DNA of 14,358 nt from a virus (Duplodnaviria; Heunggongvirae; Uroviricota; Caudoviricetes). A program made the translations under genes and the position numbers. This document shows positions 2,175 to 10,738 of this stretch, piece by piece. The notes beneath the pieces are model-generated. The model was given only the letters and a program-made list of their open reading frames with translations. It had not been told where the DNA came from and searched no databases. The stretch lies in IMG/VR virus record IMGVR_UViG_3300030125_000009. The stretch is one strand, 5' to 3'. Positions within the stretch are counted from its first letter, which is position 1; each line of letters opens with the position of its first letter.

Positions 2175-2198
2175 ATTATAGCAATCAATTAGAGCAAT
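2175..2198 (-). promoter_or_regulatory. C1 operator (Op2-like, 14/17 match to ATTGCTCTAATAAATTT) overlapping a perfect TATAAT -10 element upstream of ref
   Basis: Minus strand ATTGCTCTAATTGATTG at 2198-2182 followed by GCTATAATTTAG (TATAAT at 2180-2175); a second weaker overlapping operator-like copy ATTGCTATAATTTAGCC. Confidence 0.65.
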
Positions 2199-4219: not shown

Positions 4220-4236
4220 AGAATTATTAGAGCAAT
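4220..4236 (-). promoter_or_regulatory. C1 operator (Op99-like, 15/17 match), minus-strand orientation, between loxP and coi
   Basis: Minus strand ATTGCTCTAATAATTCT; its orientation points toward loxP and cre. Confidence 0.6.
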
Positions 4237-4296: not shown

Positions 4297-4323
4297 TTGA
4301 CAATTGCTCTAATAAATTATAGT
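4297..4323 (+). promoter_or_regulatory. Candidate coi-c1 promoter with embedded C1 operator (16/17 match): -35 TTGACA 4297-4302, operator ATTGCTCTAATAAATTA 4303-4319, -10 TATAGT 4318-4323
   Basis: Seen directly; the operator overlaps the promoter spacer, the classic arrangement for repressor autoregulation. Confidence 0.7.
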
Positions 4324-4557: not shown

Positions 4558-4767
4558 ATGGCTTTCATTCAACCAACCATCGACGACGTTAGACATTGCT
4601 CTAACGCTTTATCTGTAGACCCTGCCGAAACCGACGCTGCCCGCGCCATTGCTGAACACTACTCAAAGATATCCAATCAGGAGTACCGCATCACCCAAGA
4701 CGACCTGGATGACCTCACTGACACAATCGAATATCTCATGGCAACTAACCAGTTAGACTCACAATAA
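4558..4767 (+). CDS. coi: Coi, C1 inactivator, 69 aa
   Basis: Translation MAFIQPTIDDVRHCSNALSVDPAETDAARAIAEHYSKISNQEYRITQDDLDDLTDTIEYLMATNQLDSQ; size and position immediately upstream of c1 match P1 coi; Shine-Dalgarno GTGAGG upstream. Confidence 0.85.
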   Translation: MAFIQPTIDDVRHCSNALSVDPAETDAARAIAEHYSKISNQEYRITQDDLDDLTDTIEYLMATNQLDSQ

Positions 4768-4877
4768 ATGCACTAATAAATCTATTATTTTTGTTTGATC
4801 CCTCTATAATATAGGTCAGTAATGACCGGTTTTCTCAGCCGAGCGTTATTGACCATGTCAATTCTGGAGGAGGATCA

Positions 4878-5729
4878 ATGATAAATTATGTCTACGGCGA
4901 ACAACTGTACCAGGAGTTCGTCAGCTTCAGGGATCTCTTTCTAAAAAAAGCTGTTGCACGCGCCCAACACGTTGATACAGCCAGCGACGGTCGTCCTGTA
5001 CGCCCGGTTGTCGTTCTACCGTTCAAAGAAACTGACAGCATTCAGGCTGAAATTGATAAATGGACTTTAATGGCGCGGGAACTGGAACAGTACCCAGACC
5101 TCAATATCCCAAAGACTATTTTATATCCAGTGCCTAACATCCTTCGCGGTGTGCGCAAGGTTACAACTTATCAGACAGAAGCTGTGAACAGCGTCAACAT
5201 GACCGCTGGCCGCATTATTCATCTGATTGATAAGGACATTCGCATCCAAAAAAGCGCGGGGATCAATGAGCACAGTGCGAAATACATAGAGAACCTGGAA
5301 GCAACAAAAGAGCTAATGAGGCAGTACCCGGAGGATGAAAAATTCCGTATGCGCGTACACGGCTTTAGCGAAACAATGCTGCGCGTCCATTACATTTCCA
5401 GTAGCCCTAACTACAATGATGGTAAATCAGTTAGTTACCATGTGCCGCTGTGTGGTGTGTTTATCTGCGATGAAACTCTCCGTGATGGAATCATCATCAA
5501 CGGTGAATTCGAGAAAGCAAAATTTAGCCTTTATGACTCTATAGAACCGATCATCTGCGACCGCTGGCCGCAGGCAAAAATATATCGCCTGGCAGATATT
5601 GAAAATGTAAAAAAACAAATTGCCATCACTCGCGAAGAGAAAAAGGTCAAATCAGCCGCATCAGTTACGCGCAGCCGTAAAACCAAGAAGGGGCAGCCAG
5701 TAAACGACAACCCCGAAAGCGCGCAATAA
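4878..5729 (+). CDS. c1: C1 repressor of lysogeny, 283 aa
   Basis: Translation MINYVYGEQLYQEFVSFRDLFLKKAVARAQHVD... at 283 aa matches P1 C1 as I recall it; strong Shine-Dalgarno GGAGGAGG; many copies of its operator are present in the window. Confidence 0.93.
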   Translation: MINYVYGEQLYQEFVSFRDLFLKKAVARAQHVDTASDGRPVRPVVVLPFKETDSIQAEIDKWTLMARELEQYPDLNIPKTILYPVPNILRGVRKVTTYQTEAVNSVNMTAGRIIHLIDKDIRIQKSAGINEHSAKYIENLEATKELMRQYPEDEKFRMRVHGFSETMLRVHYISSSPNYNDGKSVSYHVPLCGVFICDETLRDGIIINGEFEKAKFSLYDSIEPIICDRWPQAKIYRLADIENVKKQIAITREEKKVKSAASVTRSRKTKKGQPVNDNPESAQ

Positions 5730-5761: not shown

Positions 5762-6628
5762 TTATTCAGCCGCCACCGGTTTTAACAAGCCAGCATCGAG
5801 CAGTTTACGCGTCAACCACTGCTGGCCTTTACCCGTTAATTGAGGCGTCAACCGTATCTGGTAGCCATCTTCATCATCCAGCACCACTTCTTTCACCGTG
5901 AAATACCCCGCGTTGATGTACTGCTGGAACGGCACATTTTTACGTCCACCGGACGCTATCAGGATGCCGTTCTCCCGTAACCAGACAAACAGCGCGTTTT
6001 GCTTAAGTCCAACAACCTTTGCAAAATTCCCAATCAGGATCCCTTTAGCTACTGATACCCGGTCGGCAAAATCGACTTTAGGAGCGGCGGCCACCAGCTG
6101 CTGATTTAGCTGGTGGGCTTTCTGTTCCAGAAGCTGCTTTTGTTCAGCCAGTTCGGCAGCCAGGCGCAGAGCTTCTGGAAGCGTCTGGGGGATTGCAACC
6201 GGTTGCTGTTCTTTTTGCCGGAAGTAGCTGTCTTCCAGTTTTTCAAAGAATGCCCATGCCTGATCGGTTTCGAGCATTTTAGCGTGGCGGGCTGCGCCGC
6301 GTTCCGTCCAGAGGATGAGTGAGCGGGCTTTAGGAGAGATAGGATTTTGTGAGTTACTTAAAGTCACCCGCAAATTGTTCAAATCATCTCCAATAACTTT
6401 ATAGAAATGCTTGCCTTCACAAAAACGTTCAGCATTACGGGAAAAGTTCTTCTTGATGTTATCCGCATCTGTCCCATACCCCTTAGCAAGGATCTTAGTT
6501 GTCACTACACGCACTCCCTGCCACTCTAGAACGGGAATTTCATCCGGCTGACTTTGAACAACCACCAGTTCTGATTCCTGAACTAAAGGTGTATTAATTT
6601 TTTCAGATTTAACGTTAGTAGCTTTCAT
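5762..6628 (-). CDS. ant2: Ant2, 288 aa, in-frame internal initiation product of the ant ORF
   Basis: Internal ATG at 6628 (MKATNVKSEK...) has its own strong Shine-Dalgarno AAGGAGG 8 nt upstream, in the same frame as ant1; this mirrors the P1 ant1/ant2 arrangement. Confidence 0.6.
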   Translation of the reverse strand: MKATNVKSEKINTPLVQESELVVVQSQPDEIPVLEWQGVRVVTTKILAKGYGTDADNIKKNFSRNAERFCEGKHFYKVIGDDLNNLRVTLSNSQNPISPKARSLILWTERGAARHAKMLETDQAWAFFEKLEDSYFRQKEQQPVAIPQTLPEALRLAAELAEQKQLLEQKAHQLNQQLVAAAPKVDFADRVSVAKGILIGNFAKVVGLKQNALFVWLRENGILIASGGRKNVPFQQYINAGYFTVKEVVLDDEDGYQIRLTPQLTGKGQQWLTRKLLDAGLLKPVAAE

Positions 6629-6877
6629 TCTGTGTGCCTCCTTGCGTGTTTCGGCTGCGACGGTTGCGTAATTCAGATGCCCCTGTTCGAGCAGGTATTC
6701 ACGGATATCAGACAGCAGGATACGGTGAACAGCGTTCTTGTCCTTTCTCCGGTAAAGTTGTTTGGTGATCATGAAGTAGTTGGCAATAACGCCAGGTATA
6801 TCCCTGGTACTGATACAGGCAGAGTGCTGTTCAATTGCCTCGATCATCTCTTCACGGGTAACTAACGATGTTCTCAT
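5762..6877 (-). CDS. ant1: Antirepressor Ant1, 371 aa (ORF6N/KilA-N-like N-terminal region plus Ant C-terminal domain); a second in-frame start gives Ant2
   Basis: ATG at 6877 preceded by AGGAGGG; the icd stop overlaps it (ATGA). Antirepressor-family domain assignment is from memory of the family, not from a search. Confidence 0.8.
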   Translation of the reverse strand: MRTSLVTREEMIEAIEQHSACISTRDIPGVIANYFMITKQLYRRKDKNAVHRILLSDIREYLLEQGHLNYATVAAETRKEAHRMKATNVKSEKINTPLVQESELVVVQSQPDEIPVLEWQGVRVVTTKILAKGYGTDADNIKKNFSRNAERFCEGKHFYKVIGDDLNNLRVTLSNSQNPISPKARSLILWTERGAARHAKMLETDQAWAFFEKLEDSYFRQKEQQPVAIPQTLPEALRLAAELAEQKQLLEQKAHQLNQQLVAAAPKVDFADRVSVAKGILIGNFAKVVGLKQNALFVWLRENGILIASGGRKNVPFQQYINAGYFTVKEVVLDDEDGYQIRLTPQLTGKGQQWLTRKLLDAGLLKPVAAE

Positions 6878-7095
6878 AGTCCCTCCTGAGCAGAAGCGTT
6901 AACAGGGAGGCACCAGTAACTGAGAGAATTGCGTGAATCAGTGGAAAAACGGGCAGAGAAAATACATGGGGCGTCAGGAAGCTGAGAGCGGGCCTCATCT
7001 TCTGTCGGTGCAATAACGAAGTGATAGTGACGTTTTTGGCAGGAGTAAAAGCGCCAGATAAATTCAGGATGAGTTGGGGTAGGGATAGTAGCCAT
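6874..7095 (-). CDS. icd: Icd-like protein (interference with cell division), 73 aa, translationally coupled to ant1
   Basis: ATG at 7095 preceded by AAGGAGG; product MATIPTPTHPEFIWRFYSCQKRHYHFVIAPTEDEARSQLPDAPCIFSARFSTDSRNSLSYWCLPVNASAQEGL; TGA stop overlaps the ant1 ATG; 73 codons equals the P1 icd length as I recall. Confidence 0.7.
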   Translation of the reverse strand: MATIPTPTHPEFIWRFYSCQKRHYHFVIAPTEDEARSQLPDAPCIFSARFSTDSRNSLSYWCLPVNASAQEGL

Positions 7096-7151
7096 ATTGG
7101 CAGCCTCCTTAGACGTTGGTATGTAACCACCGCAGAAGAGACCAATCTTGC

Positions 7152-7231
7152 TGGCGGTGGACTGTACGGAGTTGGCCTTACTGGCGTCCAAGGTAACCAG
7201 CCTACCCGAAGGTAGCCCCATACAGCCCACC
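7152..7231 (-). ncRNA. c4: Candidate c4-like antisense repressor RNA (about 80 nt, tRNA-like terminal stem, 3' GCCA)
   Basis: On the minus strand, GGUGGGCUGUAU pairs with GUACAGUCCACC as a 12-bp terminal stem, followed by GCCA; internal 5-bp hairpin with UUCG loop; the segment CCUUGGACG is complementary (9 bp, one G-U) to CGUCUAAGG, which overlaps the icd ribosome-binding site. Boundaries are approximate. Confidence 0.45.
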
Positions 7232-7260
7232 ATTGTAGAGGTGTGCGTGTACGCCGATAC

Positions 7261-7283
7261 AAAAAAAAGACGCGAGCGGCGTC
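7261..7283 (-). terminator. Rho-independent terminator downstream of pacB (hairpin GACGC-CGCUC-GCGUC plus U8)
   Basis: Hairpin followed by an 8-U run on the minus strand, about 150 nt after the pacB stop. Confidence 0.6.
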
Positions 7284-7414
7284 TGTATCGCCTTAGACTT
7301 AAGCGGGAGGCCAATCCCGGCACCCGTTTTAATGAGGTGCCTGATAAGCATAAACCGAAAATGCCTCAAGGCGCAAGAGGTCAGGTTCAATGTAACATCG
7401 GCAGTTAAAAAACA

Positions 7415-7431
7415 CAATTTATTAGAGCAAA
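7415..7431 (-). promoter_or_regulatory. C1 operator (Op51-like, 15/17 match) directly after the pacB stop and upstream of the c4-icd-ant module
   Basis: Minus strand TTTGCTCTAATAAATTG. Confidence 0.65.
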
Positions 7432-7434
7432 TAT

Positions 7435-8919
7435 TCATTCATTAAGCCATGCCAGAGCTTCATCAACCTGCGCTTCGTCTTCGACGCTAAGCACTTCATC
7501 TTGGGGAACATAATCCGCCAGCATAGCGAAACAATATGTATCCCAATGGTCTGGTGAGTGCAGGTTGAGTTTTTTCTTCATATCCTCCTTACTCATCACC
7601 TTCCATTGACCTGCGGAGTTAATCCCTACAGGGATTTTCGACGCTTCCTCAATAGTTTCATTACCCTTATCCAGTCTCATACGACCAGATTTTACGGCCT
7701 CTGCGGCTTGAACGTTGGCATAAGCACGTTTATCAAAGTACAGGCTCTTATCTTCACGGCTATGCATCTTTTTACCCCAGCGTATACGCTGTACGGTAAT
7801 ACCATAATACTCGTACATCAGATCCGCCGTTGCTTTACCCAGGCCATCGCCGTCTATCGCTATGGTAATATTTGGGAATCGCTCAGGATTACATTCTGCG
7901 AAAATTTTGGCGGCAAGCTGCGTTTCTGTAACGTCTGTGTATTCCAGCATTCGATAGTTGATTACACGGCGTTTATTTCTCTGGCCGGACACCATCATGA
8001 TATTGATAACGGACTTATCCCTTCCCGTACCACCAGCAACGTCCACACATGCAAGCCAGCCCCATCCTTTGGCAATCTTGACTTTCCGCCGCGTTGCACG
8101 TTCAACCTCATCACGTCCAAGAAGGAAGCCATCCTGTGATTTAGGGAATAGGCCGCGTACCTTAATCATGTACATAGGGTTATCGCGCCCGCCGTACTCC
8201 GCCAGCTTCATTTTGATAAATGCTGGCGTTACCAGCGGTGATTCCTCACTGTTAAGCGTGATCGCCGTATAAACGCCATCAGGGTTACCAGGACGCTTGG
8301 CCAGTTTATGGTGAGTATCGTAGAAATAGCCGCTTGGGCGTGTAGGCTGTGACAGTAATAAGATGCGGTTATCCTGTCCGGTAAGAGCACCGGTGATGAT
8401 ACCGAAAGCTCTATCACTGACACCGGAGGCTTCATCGATAATATACAGAAGATGATCTGCGTGTTCACCGGCGAGAGCTTCTTCACTTCCCAGACGAAAG
8501 CCCTTCGGTACTACAGTCCATACACCTTTACCAGTAACCTCATAGAAAGCGGTTTCTGTCAGAACAAAATAATCAGCAAGCCACGGAAAACGGCTGGTGG
8601 CCGTAGCCCAGTTTATCTTGATGTACTTGAATATACCGGTCATTACCTGCTGAATTTTGTTCGCAACGATAATGGCGCGGGCACCGGGATACATGATTAT
8701 GAACAACATGATCATGATAGAAGTCATGTCTGATTTCCCGGTACCGTGACCAGACGAAACAGATGTCTTGCTACCCTGTTCCTGCACAGACTCAATAATC
8801 AGATCCTGCTGCCAGGTAGGTGTTTTGCCGAACAAAACATCAGCGGCAGCAATCCAGTCATAACGATATAGCGCCACCAGCTCGCGCCAACGTGGATCCG
8901 TTACGCAACTTCTGGCCAT
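7435..8919 (-). CDS. pacB: PacB, pacase (terminase) large subunit, 494 aa
   Basis: Translation [22 protein letters not shown]...; size and position (after pacA, start overlapping the pacA stop as TAATG) match P1 pacB. Confidence 0.9.
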
Positions 8920-10198: not shown

Positions 10199-10651
10199 TC
10201 AGATACGTGCGGATGTGGCATTACCGTAATGACGGTGCTGACGGACCACCTTATTGAAAAATTGACGCGCCATTACCCAAGGCTGGTGCTCCCGGCGTTC
10301 CTTTTCGTCCTGCGTCATATAGAGTTCGTTCTGGAGTTTTTCATCAAACCGGCGCGGAGCGCGACTGCGGCGAAAGAATTCAGGATTCAGAGAGTGGATC
10401 TGAAATCTACGTGGGCGTGTACTGTCATCAATCAAAACAGACGAATACTTAGACACAGCGATAGCCTTTAAGCGCAGATAAACATCGCGCTTATCGACAT
10501 CCAGATGCGGGTATTCCTTTTCAAGAATTGCTGCGAGTTCTTTCGCTGATAGAAGAGATTTAGTGCGGATCATGTAATCCGCAATCTCGTACGATGTTAT
10601 TCGTGAGTGATTTATTTCCATGAAGTGGCGTCCCTGCCAGTTAAGTAACAT
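10199..10651 (-). CDS. lpa: Lpa (late promoter activator, gp10)-like protein, 150 aa
   Basis: Position immediately upstream of pacA; a C1 operator lies in its promoter region; Shine-Dalgarno AGGTGACAGG before the ATG. Identity is by synteny and size, not sequence recall. Confidence 0.7.
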   Translation of the reverse strand: MLLNWQGRHFMEINHSRITSYEIADYMIRTKSLLSAKELAAILEKEYPHLDVDKRDVYLRLKAIAVSKYSSVLIDDSTRPRRFQIHSLNPEFFRRSRAPRRFDEKLQNELYMTQDEKERREHQPWVMARQFFNKVVRQHRHYGNATSARI

Positions 10652-10721: not shown

Positions 10722-10738
10722 CAATACATTAGAGCAAT
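10722..10738 (-). promoter_or_regulatory. C1 operator (14/17 match) upstream of lpa
   Basis: Minus strand ATTGCTCTAATGTATTG, immediately after the pdcB stop. Confidence 0.6.

What the first reader, a model, noticed from the sequence alone, without database searches (positions are those of the whole stretch)
7096..7260. Candidate c4-like antisense RNA with tRNA-like terminal stem and complementarity to the icd ribosome-binding site
On the minus strand an 80-nt segment (7231-7152) begins GGUGGGCUGUAU and ends GUACAGUCCACC-GCCA. The ends form a 12-bp helix followed by an unpaired GCCA, resembling an acceptor stem with a CCA end; P1 c4 RNA is reported to be about 77 nt and matured by RNase P. Internally, CCUUGGACG can pair over 9 bp with CGUCUAAGG in the icd leader, which overlaps the AAGGAGG Shine-Dalgarno, as expected for antisense translational repression. 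An intrinsic terminator (7283-7261) lies between the upstream operator and this RNA, so its promoter and processing are unclear.
Basis: partly seen in the sequence, partly recalled or inferred. Interest (0 to 1): 0.55.

Follow-up and report, generated by a model that had tools for sequence, protein, structure and literature searches.

The report
P1-type C4 antisense RNA gene
The flagged segment is an unannotated copy of the C4 antisense RNA that P1-like phages use to keep their antirepressor silent; it has its own target specificity and an IsrK-like leader, so it is a new member of a well-known regulator family and not a new kind of element.

Summary
The window comes from an E. coli P1-like phage-plasmid (pacA, pacB, c1, cre, phd/doc). 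On the minus strand, 7237-7150 matches Rfam C4 antisense RNA (RF01695) at 75.9 bits, against a gathering score of 45. Across 16 distinct homologues the three-helix fold pairs in 100% of cells, and 12 pairs show compensatory changes.

C4 has two recognition segments:
- b' (CCUUGGACG, 7193-7185)
- a' (AGGCCAA, 7178-7172)

Each has a complementary site in two places:
- The icd leader carries a2 (7145-7139) and b2 (7115-7107); b2 covers the Shine-Dalgarno sequence.
- The upstream leader carries a1 (7314-7308) and b1 (7298-7291).

In all 14 specificity alleles collected, the four target sites change together with a' and b'.

In Gifsy-1 the same IsrK-C4 tandem gives a short IsrK RNA, read-through transcripts and a processed RNA of about 80 nt.

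The module (C1 operator, IsrK-like leader, C4, icd, ant) lies between pacB and c1. It is a second antirepressor module, orthogonal to the canonical immI in related plasmids. Expression, RNase P processing and repression are inferred, not shown.

The parts
7415..7431 (-). C1 repressor operator-like site (TTTGCTCTAATAAATTG), just after the pacB stop codon
   Evidence: 2 mismatches to the P1 C1 operator consensus. The window holds 6 sites with 3 or fewer mismatches against 0.06 expected. It aligns with the annotated P1 operator Oc4/Op51.
7389..7417 (-). Inferred C1-controlled promoter (TTGTGT-17-TACATT), the counterpart of P1 P2c4/P51a
   Evidence: Aligns with the annotated P1 P2c4 hexamers. The -35 overlaps the operator. 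It did not pass the consensus scan, so it is inferred only.
7347..7352 (-). Inferred -10 (TATGCT) of the proximal promoter, the counterpart of P1 P1c4/P51b; predicted start near 7340
   Evidence: Aligned to the P1 -10 TATAGT by the c4-a1b1 model (20.5 bits) and by MAFFT. The -10 column is kept in window, RCS47, pE189-1, Stx phage, P1 and Gifsy-1. The -35 is weak (TTGCGC, 18-nt spacer), and the scan did not report it.
7263..7340 (-). IsrK-like leader RNA: hairpin 1, hairpin 2 and an intrinsic terminator
   Evidence: Rfam isrK RF01394, 60.8 bits against a gathering score of 50. The three hairpins were recovered de novo, with 4 compensatory pairs across 5 sequences. Its 5' part also matches c4-a1b1 weakly.
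7308..7314 (-). a1 site (UUGGCCU) in the loop of leader hairpin 2; perfect complement of a'
   Evidence: inverted repeat I2. It covaries with a' in all 14 alleles.
7291..7298 (-). b1 site (GUCUAAGG); complement of b' with one G.U pair
   Evidence: (direct repeat D2 with b2).
7261..7284 (-). Intrinsic terminator of the leader RNA (6-bp stem, 5-nt loop, U-run)
   Evidence: It corresponds to the terminator hairpin of the isrK model.
7150..7237 (-). C4 antisense RNA gene (Rfam match); predicted mature RNA 7231 to about 7152, 79-80 nt
   Evidence: RF01695, 75.9 bits against a gathering score of 45, E = 1e-13. Fold. 100% of cells paired and 12 compensatory pairs across 16 distinct homologues. Mature ends are inferred from the annotated P1 c4 ends.
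7185..7193 (-). b' recognition segment (CCUUGGACG) in the 12-nt loop of hairpin 2
7172..7178 (-). a' recognition segment (AGGCCAA) in the single-stranded junction
7139..7145 (-). a2 target (UUGGUCU) in the icd leader
   Evidence: It sits at the same offset (+5 from the Rfam match) in all isrK-type alleles.
7107..7115 (-). b2 target (CGUCUAAGG), overlapping the icd Shine-Dalgarno sequence AAGGAGG (7110-7104)
6874..7095 (-). icd (73 aa), the first ORF of the operon
   Evidence: 74% identical to P1 Icd. NCBIfam phage_ICD_like, 49.8 bits.
5762..6877 (-). ant (371 aa antirepressor), start overlapping the icd stop (ATGA)
   Evidence: Pfam ANT/KilAC plus ORF6N. 54% identical to P1 Ant1, with the N- and C-terminal parts conserved. 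The overlap was read.
4878..5729 (+). c1 repressor gene (context), convergent with ant
   Evidence: NCBIfam phage_rep_C1 equivalog, 612 bits.
7435..8919 (-). pacB (context), immediately upstream of the module
   Evidence: Its 3' end is 100% identical to P1/P7 pacB. Annotation.

Best explanation
This is a C4-family antisense RNA gene inside a P1-type antirepressor operon: operator/promoters, IsrK-like leader, C4, icd, ant. The operon is inserted between pacB and c1 of a P1-like phage-plasmid.

Proposed mechanism. Every functional step is inferred by homology; the sequence features are shown.
1. Transcription starts near 7340 from a proximal promoter. An upstream promoter that overlaps a C1 operator adds to it.
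2. Most transcripts stop at the leader terminator (7284-7261). This yields an IsrK-like RNA of about 78 nt that carries the decoy sites a1 and b1.
3. Read-through transcripts contain C4. RNase P cuts it out before G7231, recognising a long acceptor-like stem followed by GCCA. The product is about 80 nt.
4. C4 then acts in cis and in trans. Its junction a' pairs with a2, and its loop b' pairs with b2 over the icd Shine-Dalgarno sequence, which blocks icd translation.
5. Because ant overlaps icd (ATGA) and depends on icd translation, antirepressor synthesis is shut off. In P1 this works through translational coupling and Rho-dependent polarity. C1 therefore stays active and lysogeny and immunity are kept.

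The a'/b' sequence defines an immunity specificity different from P1 and from the canonical immI alleles found in related plasmids.
For: Family and fold:
- Rfam C4, 75.9 bits against a gathering score of 45.
- Stable fold.
- 100% of 423 cells paired, 12 pairs with changes on both sides, and slid controls at 31-52% paired.

Targets:
- 88 C4 copies were found next to icd in 91 loci. They give 14 distinct a'/b' combinations.
- In every combination the best complements of a' and b' lie at the same offsets upstream and downstream.
- Mean cognate duplex energy is -28 kcal/mol against -17 kcal/mol for non-cognate pairs.
- The four-site complementarity in the window was matched by 0 of 20,000 shuffles.
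- The bipartite target pattern occurs only at the two predicted sites.

Context:
- The layout is the same as the annotated P1 immI region: Oc4, P2c4, P1c4, a1, b1, c4, a2, b2, icd, ant1.
- Icd and Ant homology; C1 operator.

Experimental support from a homologue:
- The Gifsy-1 IsrK locus carries the same IsrK-C4 tandem.
- Northern blots there show short IsrK, read-through transcripts and a processed species of about 80 nt, STnc1160 (PMC4825925).
- RNase P processing of P1/P7 C4 at a GGU motif is summarised in PMC5320573.
Against: - There are no expression, processing or repression data for this element.
- A canonical intrinsic terminator lies 24 nt upstream of C4, so C4 depends on read-through of unknown efficiency.
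- Both putative promoters have weak -35 hexamers and were not reported by the consensus scan.
- The b'/b1, b'/b2 and a'/a2 duplexes each contain an internal G.U pair. The cognate energy (-24.7 kcal/mol) is among the weakest of the alleles.
- No variant with perfect pairing was found in IMG/VR.
- An ORF starting at AUG 7233 runs through C4 in frame with icd, and its translation matches Pfam Phage_ASH.
Confidence: 0.9

Rival explanations
1. The segment is protein-coding. It would encode an 'Ash family' small protein, or an N-terminal extension of Icd starting at AUG 7233, and the RNA structure would be incidental.
For: - The frame is open from 7323 to the icd stop, which gives a 119-aa fusion from AUG 7233.
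- Its translation matches Pfam PF10554 Phage_ASH at 26.6 bits against a cut-off of 26.
- PGAP labels the region 'ash family protein' in related plasmids.
- In Gifsy-1 the equivalent orf45 was reported as translated when IsrK is overproduced (PMC4825925).
Against: - The ORF from the conserved AUG is not conserved. It is 14 aa in P1 (with a stop inside b'), 31-45 aa in other alleles, and fused to icd only in some.
- The C4 scaffolds differ by two separate 1-nt gaps, which shifts the frame.
- Substitutions are compensatory at the RNA level.
- No Shine-Dalgarno sequence precedes AUG 7233 (CACACCUCUACA), whereas icd has AAGGAGG.
- NCBIfam finds nothing for the 46-aa peptide.
Confidence: 0.04
2. The RNA is a C4 homologue that works mainly as in phage P4 CI RNA. 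It would pair with the upstream and downstream sites to control transcription termination, at the leader terminator or by Rho, and not by blocking the icd ribosome-binding site.
For: - Target sites flank the RNA on both sides, as seqA and seqC flank CI in P4 (PMC4825925 discussion).
- A strong terminator lies between a1b1 and C4.
- In the predicted fold of the 256-nt leader, a1/b1 pair in cis with b'/a' next to the terminator.
Against: - b2 overlaps the Shine-Dalgarno sequence in every allele, which points to control of translation.
- The downstream genes are icd-ant as in P1, where translational repression with secondary polarity is the established mechanism (P1 annotation).
- In Gifsy-1, constitutive STnc1160 did not behave as a termination factor.
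Confidence: 0.05
3. It is a tRNA-like relic or a chance stable hairpin with no regulatory role.
For: It has an acceptor-like stem with a GCCA tail and no annotation in public records.
Against: - ARAGORN finds no tRNA in the window.
- The Rfam C4 match has E = 1e-13.
- Targets covary in three places across 14 alleles.
- 28 loci are identical and the module is widespread: 258 of 5,426 complete E. coli genomes hold at least 80% of the 801-nt region.
Confidence: 0.01

Closest known systems
c4 antisense RNA of phages P1 and P7 (immI operon; Rfam RF01695)
   Same: - Same fold: a long closing stem, a UUCG-type hairpin and a hairpin carrying b' in its loop, with a' in the junction.
- Same layout: a1, b1, C4, a2, b2 (over the Shine-Dalgarno sequence), icd, ant.
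- A C1 operator upstream.
- A GGU 5' end and a CC(A) 3' tail.
- Icd 74% identical and Ant 54% identical.
   Different: - Different scaffold sequence: 88 vs 86 nt, and only 45 bits against a model built from isrK-type copies.
- Different a'/b' specificity: AGGCCAA/CCUUGGACG against CUGUCAA/CACUAACG in P1.
- Internal G.U pairs in three of the four duplexes.
- The leader is IsrK-type with a canonical terminator, where P1 has the c4-a1b1 form.
- It lies between pacB and c1, not between sim and kilA-repL.
- Ant carries an ORF6N middle domain.
IsrK sRNA / isrK-orf45-anrP locus of Salmonella prophage Gifsy-1 (Rfam RF01394; PMC4825925)
   Same: - Same tandem: an IsrK-type leader with terminator, followed about 25 nt later by a C4-family RNA and then an antirepressor gene.
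- a1 lies in the loop of hairpin 2.
- A cis a1b1:b'a' pairing is predicted. It corresponds to the mutationally supported helix b-I there.
   Different: - Gifsy-1 has no icd. The leader ORF there is orf45, which overlaps C4.
- The repressor system is lambdoid, not C1.
- a'/b' alleles differ.
- The published model treats the C4 region as an ORF plus a processed fragment (STnc1160). In what I read it does not relate it to P1 c4 (0 mentions of phage P1, RNase P or Rfam).
isrK + C4 modules of Stx-converting lambdoid phages (for example LC710660, annotated 'isrK Hfq binding RNA' and 'C4 antisense RNA')
   Same: About 78-79% nucleotide identity over the 250-nt IsrK-C4 region, and the same C4 stem sequence GGUGGGCUGUAUGGGG.
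   Different: The downstream gene is not icd-ant. The a'/b' allele differs (GUCCUAA/CCUUGAUUG). The phage backbone is lambdoid.
CI RNA immunity of satellite phage P4 (seqA - CI - seqC)
   Same: A processed small RNA flanked by complementary upstream and downstream target sites. The Gifsy-1 authors cite it as the structural analogue.
   Different: P4 CI acts by causing premature transcription termination of replication genes, not by occluding an antirepressor-operon ribosome-binding site. It was not compared by sequence here.

Membership tests
C4 antisense RNA (Rfam RF01695; P1/P7 c4) | Covariance-model score at or above the curated gathering threshold | tested here: met
   75.9 bits against 45, full-length match 1-87/87. 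P1's own c4 scores 68.8.
C4 antisense RNA (Rfam RF01695; P1/P7 c4) | Three-helix fold supported by compensatory changes | tested here: met
   27 pairs, 100% of 423 cells paired, 12 pairs changed on both sides, slid controls 31-52%. The alignment was fitted to the model, which favours it, but the independent MFE gives the same fold.
C4 antisense RNA (Rfam RF01695; P1/P7 c4) | Unpaired a' and b' segments complementary to a2/b2 in the downstream leader, with b2 over the ribosome-binding site of the first ORF | tested here: met
   a' 7178-7172 with a2 7145-7139. b' 7193-7185 with b2 7115-7107, overlapping the Shine-Dalgarno sequence 7110-7104.
C4 antisense RNA (Rfam RF01695; P1/P7 c4) | Duplicate target pair a1/b1 upstream of the RNA | tested here: met
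   a1 7314-7308 and b1 7298-7291. The Rfam c4-a1b1 model itself reaches only 20.5 bits against 46.7; the isrK model fits this leader instead.
C4 antisense RNA (Rfam RF01695; P1/P7 c4) | Lies in an operon with icd and ant, with the icd stop overlapping the ant start | tested here: met
C4 antisense RNA (Rfam RF01695; P1/P7 c4) | Matured from a longer transcript by RNase P to about 77 nt | not testable with these tools
   Sequence is compatible: a GGU 5' end, a 16-bp stem and a GCCA tail. The reported processing is summarised in PMC5320573.
C4 antisense RNA (Rfam RF01695; P1/P7 c4) | Represses antirepressor synthesis in trans and sets immunity specificity | not testable with these tools
   Indirect only: targets covary with a'/b' in 14 alleles, and cognate duplex energies are stronger than non-cognate.
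IsrK Hfq-binding RNA (Rfam RF01394) | Covariance-model score at or above the gathering threshold, and three hairpins ending in an intrinsic terminator | tested here: met
   60.8 bits against 50. Terminator. De novo consensus fold with 4 compensatory pairs.
IsrK Hfq-binding RNA (Rfam RF01394) | The short form binds Hfq and activates translation of the read-through mRNA in trans | not testable with these tools
   Known only for Gifsy-1 (PMC4825925).
Ash protein family (Pfam PF10554) | A conserved protein-coding ORF | tested here: not met
   The HMM match is marginal (26.6 against 26 bits). The ORF length varies from 14 to 119 aa, and it is truncated in P1.
tRNA / tRNA-like gene | Cloverleaf detectable by ARAGORN or the Rfam tRNA model | tested here: not met
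   No tRNA or tmRNA in the window. There is no Rfam tRNA hit.

The most novel reading that the evidence does not exclude
The terminated IsrK-like leader may be more than a by-product. It could be a trans-acting decoy (anti-antisense RNA) whose a1/b1 sites titrate C4. The module would then be a self-contained three-RNA switch of decoy, antisense and mRNA that controls a second antirepressor next to c1. This switch would be orthogonal to the canonical immI module of the same phage-plasmid. Free reassortment of a' and b' alleles would then produce many heteroimmunity types. It would also mean that Gifsy-1 IsrK/orf45/STnc1160, P1 a1b1/c4 and the Stx-phage modules are one and the same system.
Probability: 0.35. 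Interest if true: 0.55.

Novelty: new member of a known kind. Interest (0 to 1): 0.3.

Why it matters
C4 is a classic antisense repressor, and its a'/b' sequence decides which P1-like phages are immune to each other.

This copy is not annotated as an RNA in the P1-like plasmid and phage records examined here. The PGAP-annotated plasmids label the region a pseudogene or small 'ash family protein'. It marks a second antirepressor module that many E. coli phage-plasmids carry beside c1.

Annotating it correctly matters for three reasons:
- It removes a spurious protein call.
- It explains the 'ant insertion between pacB and c1' that earlier plasmid surveys noted without mentioning an RNA.
- It gives a simple sequence read-out, the a'/b' allele, for predicting cross-immunity among P1-like plasmids. 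Several of these carry resistance genes.

It also ties the Salmonella IsrK literature to the P1 c4 literature.

Tried and rejected
- **24B_1 precursor.** I asked whether the 80-nt precursor of the Stx-phage 'microRNA-size' RNA 24B_1 is this C4 homologue. It is not: 24B_1 maps between lom and vb_24B_43, a different locus.
- **Separate promoter for C4.** Only about 24 nt separate the U-run from C4. TACAAT (7238-7233) has a poor -35 and would start transcription inside the stem. The flank is not conserved as a promoter in other alleles.
- **Terminator in P1.** The consensus scan found no terminator between b1 and c4 in P1. By eye and by folding there is a hairpin followed by a U-rich tract. The strong terminator is therefore specific to the isrK-type leader.
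- **Perfectly complementary variants.** I searched IMG/VR for variants of this allele without the G.U pairs, either b' CCUUAGAC or b2 GUCCAAGG. None was found.
- **Primary papers.** Hartmann 1995 and Citron & Schuster 1992 are not held. Statements about RNase P rest on a secondary summary and on the P1 GenBank annotation.
- **P1-type and isrK-type alignment.** The MAFFT alignment of the two C4 types was out of structural register. I used a covariance-model alignment instead.
- **tRNA.** The ARAGORN scan was negative.

Full report
**What the window is**

The 801 bases around the finding match E. coli P1-like phage-plasmids.
- They are 98.4% identical to phage vB_EcoM-673R5 and 87% identical to RCS47.
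- The first 64 bases (the pacB 3' end) are 100% identical to P1 and P7.
- In complete E. coli genomes, 786 of 5,426 have a match, 258 hold at least 80% of the region, and 857 of 1,000 places are on plasmids.

Annotated relatives give this gene order: hsd, phd/doc, pdcB, lpa, pacA, pacB, [small ORFs, icd-like, ant], c1, coi, cre. In the window:
- pacB is 8919-7435 (-).
- icd is 7095-6874 (-).
- ant is 6877-5762 (-).
- c1 is 4878-5729 (+), matching the NCBIfam C1 equivalog at 612 bits.

The finding lies in the 340-nt gap between pacB and icd.

**Checking the observation**

- The 80-nt segment 7231-7152 has the stated ends.
- The ends pair, and the helix extends to 16-17 bp.
- The unpaired tail is GCCA (7155-7152).
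- CCUUGGACG (7193-7185) pairs with CGUCUAAGG (7115-7107) over 9 bp, one of them G.U.
- That target overlaps AAGGAGG (7110-7104), 8 nt before the icd AUG.
- The terminator (stem 7284-7268 plus U-run) is found by the scan.
- The RNA folds at -41.6 kcal/mol with z = -3.2.

**What it is**

Rfam places 7237-7150 (-) in the C4 antisense RNA family at 75.9 bits, against a gathering score of 45. That is higher than P1's own c4 (68.8 bits).

The annotated P1 immI region reads Oc4, P2c4, P1c4, a1, b1, c4, a2, b2, icd, ant1. The window has the same parts in the same order:
- a C1 operator-like site, 7431-7415. It has 2 mismatches. Six such sites occur in the window against 0.06 expected.
- a1 UUGGCCU, 7314-7308, in the loop of leader hairpin 2
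- b1 GUCUAAGG, 7298-7291
- C4, with b' in the 12-nt loop of its second hairpin and a' (AGGCCAA, 7178-7172) in the junction
- a2 UUGGUCU, 7145-7139
- b2, 7115-7107

An independent repeat search finds the b1/b2 direct repeat and the a'/a1 inverted repeat. The bipartite target pattern occurs only at these two places in 14 kb. Shuffling gives p = 0.011, 0.067, 0.034 and 0.044 for the four matches, and 0 of 20,000 shuffles match all four.

**Comparative evidence**

I used the Icd protein to collect loci. I then searched them with a covariance model built from four isrK-type C4 sequences.
- 88 C4 copies were found next to icd. They comprise 16 distinct sequences and 14 distinct a'/b' combinations.
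- Variation is concentrated in the b' loop and the a' junction. The stems change by compensation: 100% of cells are paired and 12 pairs changed on both sides, against 31-52% paired in slid controls.
- In all 14 combinations the best ungapped complements of a' and b' lie at the same offsets both upstream and downstream. The RNA and its four target sites therefore change together.
- Cognate duplex energies average -28 kcal/mol against -17 kcal/mol for non-cognate pairs.
- The alleles reassort. The P1-type scaffold combines two a' forms with at least five b' forms. The RCS47-type scaffold combines two with two.
- The window's allele (28 identical loci) is unusual in having an internal G.U pair in b'/b1, b'/b2 and a'/a2. 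No perfectly paired variant exists in IMG/VR.

**The terminator problem**

The leader is an IsrK-type RNA. Its three hairpins are recovered de novo with four compensatory pairs. Its 5' part matches the c4-a1b1 model weakly, and that alignment places the window's TATGCT (7352-7347) on P1's P1c4 -10.

I confirmed that the experimentally studied Gifsy-1 locus has the same tandem:
- isrK at 34316-34240
- C4 at 34214-34131, 69 bits
- c4-a1b1 overlapping isrK

The Gifsy-1 paper reports the following (PMC4825925):
- a short terminated IsrK RNA
- read-through transcripts
- a processed species of about 80 nt, STnc1160, that depends on the isrK promoter
- a mutationally supported helix between IsrK G28/G31 and C162/C159; by my indexing of the Gifsy-1 IsrK sequence, G28 and G31 lie in a1, so this helix corresponds to the a1:a' pairing

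[quoted passage not shown] C4 expression by read-through of this terminator therefore has precedent. For the window itself it remains inferred.

The 256-nt leader is predicted to pair a1/b1 with b'/a' in cis, as in the Gifsy-1 'structure A'.

**Mechanism**

The sequence features shown here are the fold, the four covarying target sites, b2 lying over the Shine-Dalgarno sequence, the ATGA overlap of icd and ant, and the C1 operator. The following steps are inferred from P1/P7 and Gifsy-1:
- RNase P cleaves before G7231.
- The mature RNA is about 80 nt.
- C4 represses icd translation in trans, with loss of ant expression as a consequence.
- The short leader RNA may act as a decoy.

The putative promoters are weak and were not reported by the consensus scan.

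**A second module**

Plasmid pE189-1 is a close relative of the window (96.5% over 98% of it). It carries two modules:
- the canonical immI module (c4-a1b1 plus C4 plus icd-ant-kilA-repL)
- the pacB-c1 module (isrK plus C4 plus icd-ant)

Their a'/b' alleles differ. One IMG/VR contig carries three modules. Duplex energies between the window's C4 and P1-scaffold leaders are about -14 kcal/mol, against -24.7 for its own leader, so the modules look orthogonal.

An earlier survey noted 'two short hypothetical orfs and ant' inserted between pacB and c1 in pTZ20_1P and RCS47. The passages I retrieved from it describe no RNA in that insert (PMC6906374).

**Rival readings**

- Protein-coding. The frame from AUG 7233 is open into icd, and its translation matches Pfam Phage_ASH marginally. 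However, the ORF is 14 aa in P1 and varies from 31 to 119 aa elsewhere. The scaffolds differ by single-base gaps. No Shine-Dalgarno sequence precedes the AUG.
- tRNA. ARAGORN finds nothing.
- P4-type termination control. This cannot be excluded as a secondary effect. It is disfavoured as the main mechanism because b2 covers the ribosome-binding site in every allele.

**Verdict**

This is a genuine member of the C4 antisense RNA family. It has a new specificity allele and an IsrK-type leader, and it sits in a second antirepressor module of a P1-like phage-plasmid. The kind is well known. What this analysis adds is the annotation, the four-site target architecture, the explanation of the terminator, and the link to Gifsy-1 IsrK/STnc1160. 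Interest is modest.

Noticed in passing
window 7096-7323 (-); L001 7063-7380; L006 31041-31160: PGAP annotates the C4 RNA region as an 'ash family protein' (a pseudogene, or 39 aa). The translation of the window's C4 region matches Pfam PF10554 Phage_ASH at 26.6 bits against a cut-off of 26. The ORF is not conserved (14 aa in P1), so this protein family appears to be at least partly built on translations of C4-type RNA genes.
   Followed up: partly
L094 (Gifsy-1) 34131-34329 (-): In Gifsy-1, Rfam C4 (69 bits) lies directly downstream of isrK. The ORF from the conserved AUG at the C4 5' end is exactly 45 aa. The published 'orf45' and the ~80-nt STnc1160 species therefore coincide with a C4-family RNA. 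In the IsrK paper I found no mention of phage P1, RNase P or Rfam.
   Followed up: partly
L005 28668-28874 and L006 31077-31287 (plasmid pE189-1); L020, L086 and L092 on one IMG/VR contig: Single P1-like elements carry two or even three C4-icd modules with different a'/b' alleles. a' and b' variants reassort combinatorially on a constant scaffold, giving 14 combinations in 88 copies.
   Followed up: partly
window 7160-7154 with 7133-7127 (-); equivalents in RCS47, P1 and Gifsy-1: The 3' strand of the C4 closing stem can pair instead with a leader segment just after a2 (CCACCGC with GCGGUGG), which places a2 in a hairpin loop. The pairing changes in step in RCS47 (GCUACCGC/GCGGUAGC) and Gifsy-1 (UCACCACC/GGUGGUGA). 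This suggests a conserved alternative conformation of the unprocessed transcript.
   Followed up: partly
window 7298-7284 with 7261-7247 (-): A 15-nt, 80% complementary inverted repeat brackets the leader terminator and would sequester b1 in read-through transcripts. Its significance is unknown.
   Followed up: no
window 2182-2198, 4220-4236, 4303-4319, 4767-4783, 7415-7431, 10722-10738: Six C1 operator-like sites (3 or fewer mismatches) occur against 0.06 expected by chance. Three cluster upstream of c1/coi, and one lies upstream of the ORF at 10199-10651 (-), which corresponds by position to lpa in related plasmids. This is the usual dispersed C1 regulon of P1.
   Followed up: partly
window 5762-6877 (-): The antirepressor is mosaic relative to P1 Ant1. 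The N-terminal ~105 aa and the C-terminal ~140 aa are conserved, but the middle is replaced by an ORF6N domain (Pfam PF10543).
   Followed up: partly
L009, L010 (contigs JAFAFU010000035 and JAFAFU010000019): Two short contigs of a metagenome-assembled genome labelled 'Bacillota bacterium' carry E. coli P1-like icd/C4 modules (81-96% Icd identity). This is probably mis-binning or contamination.
   Followed up: no
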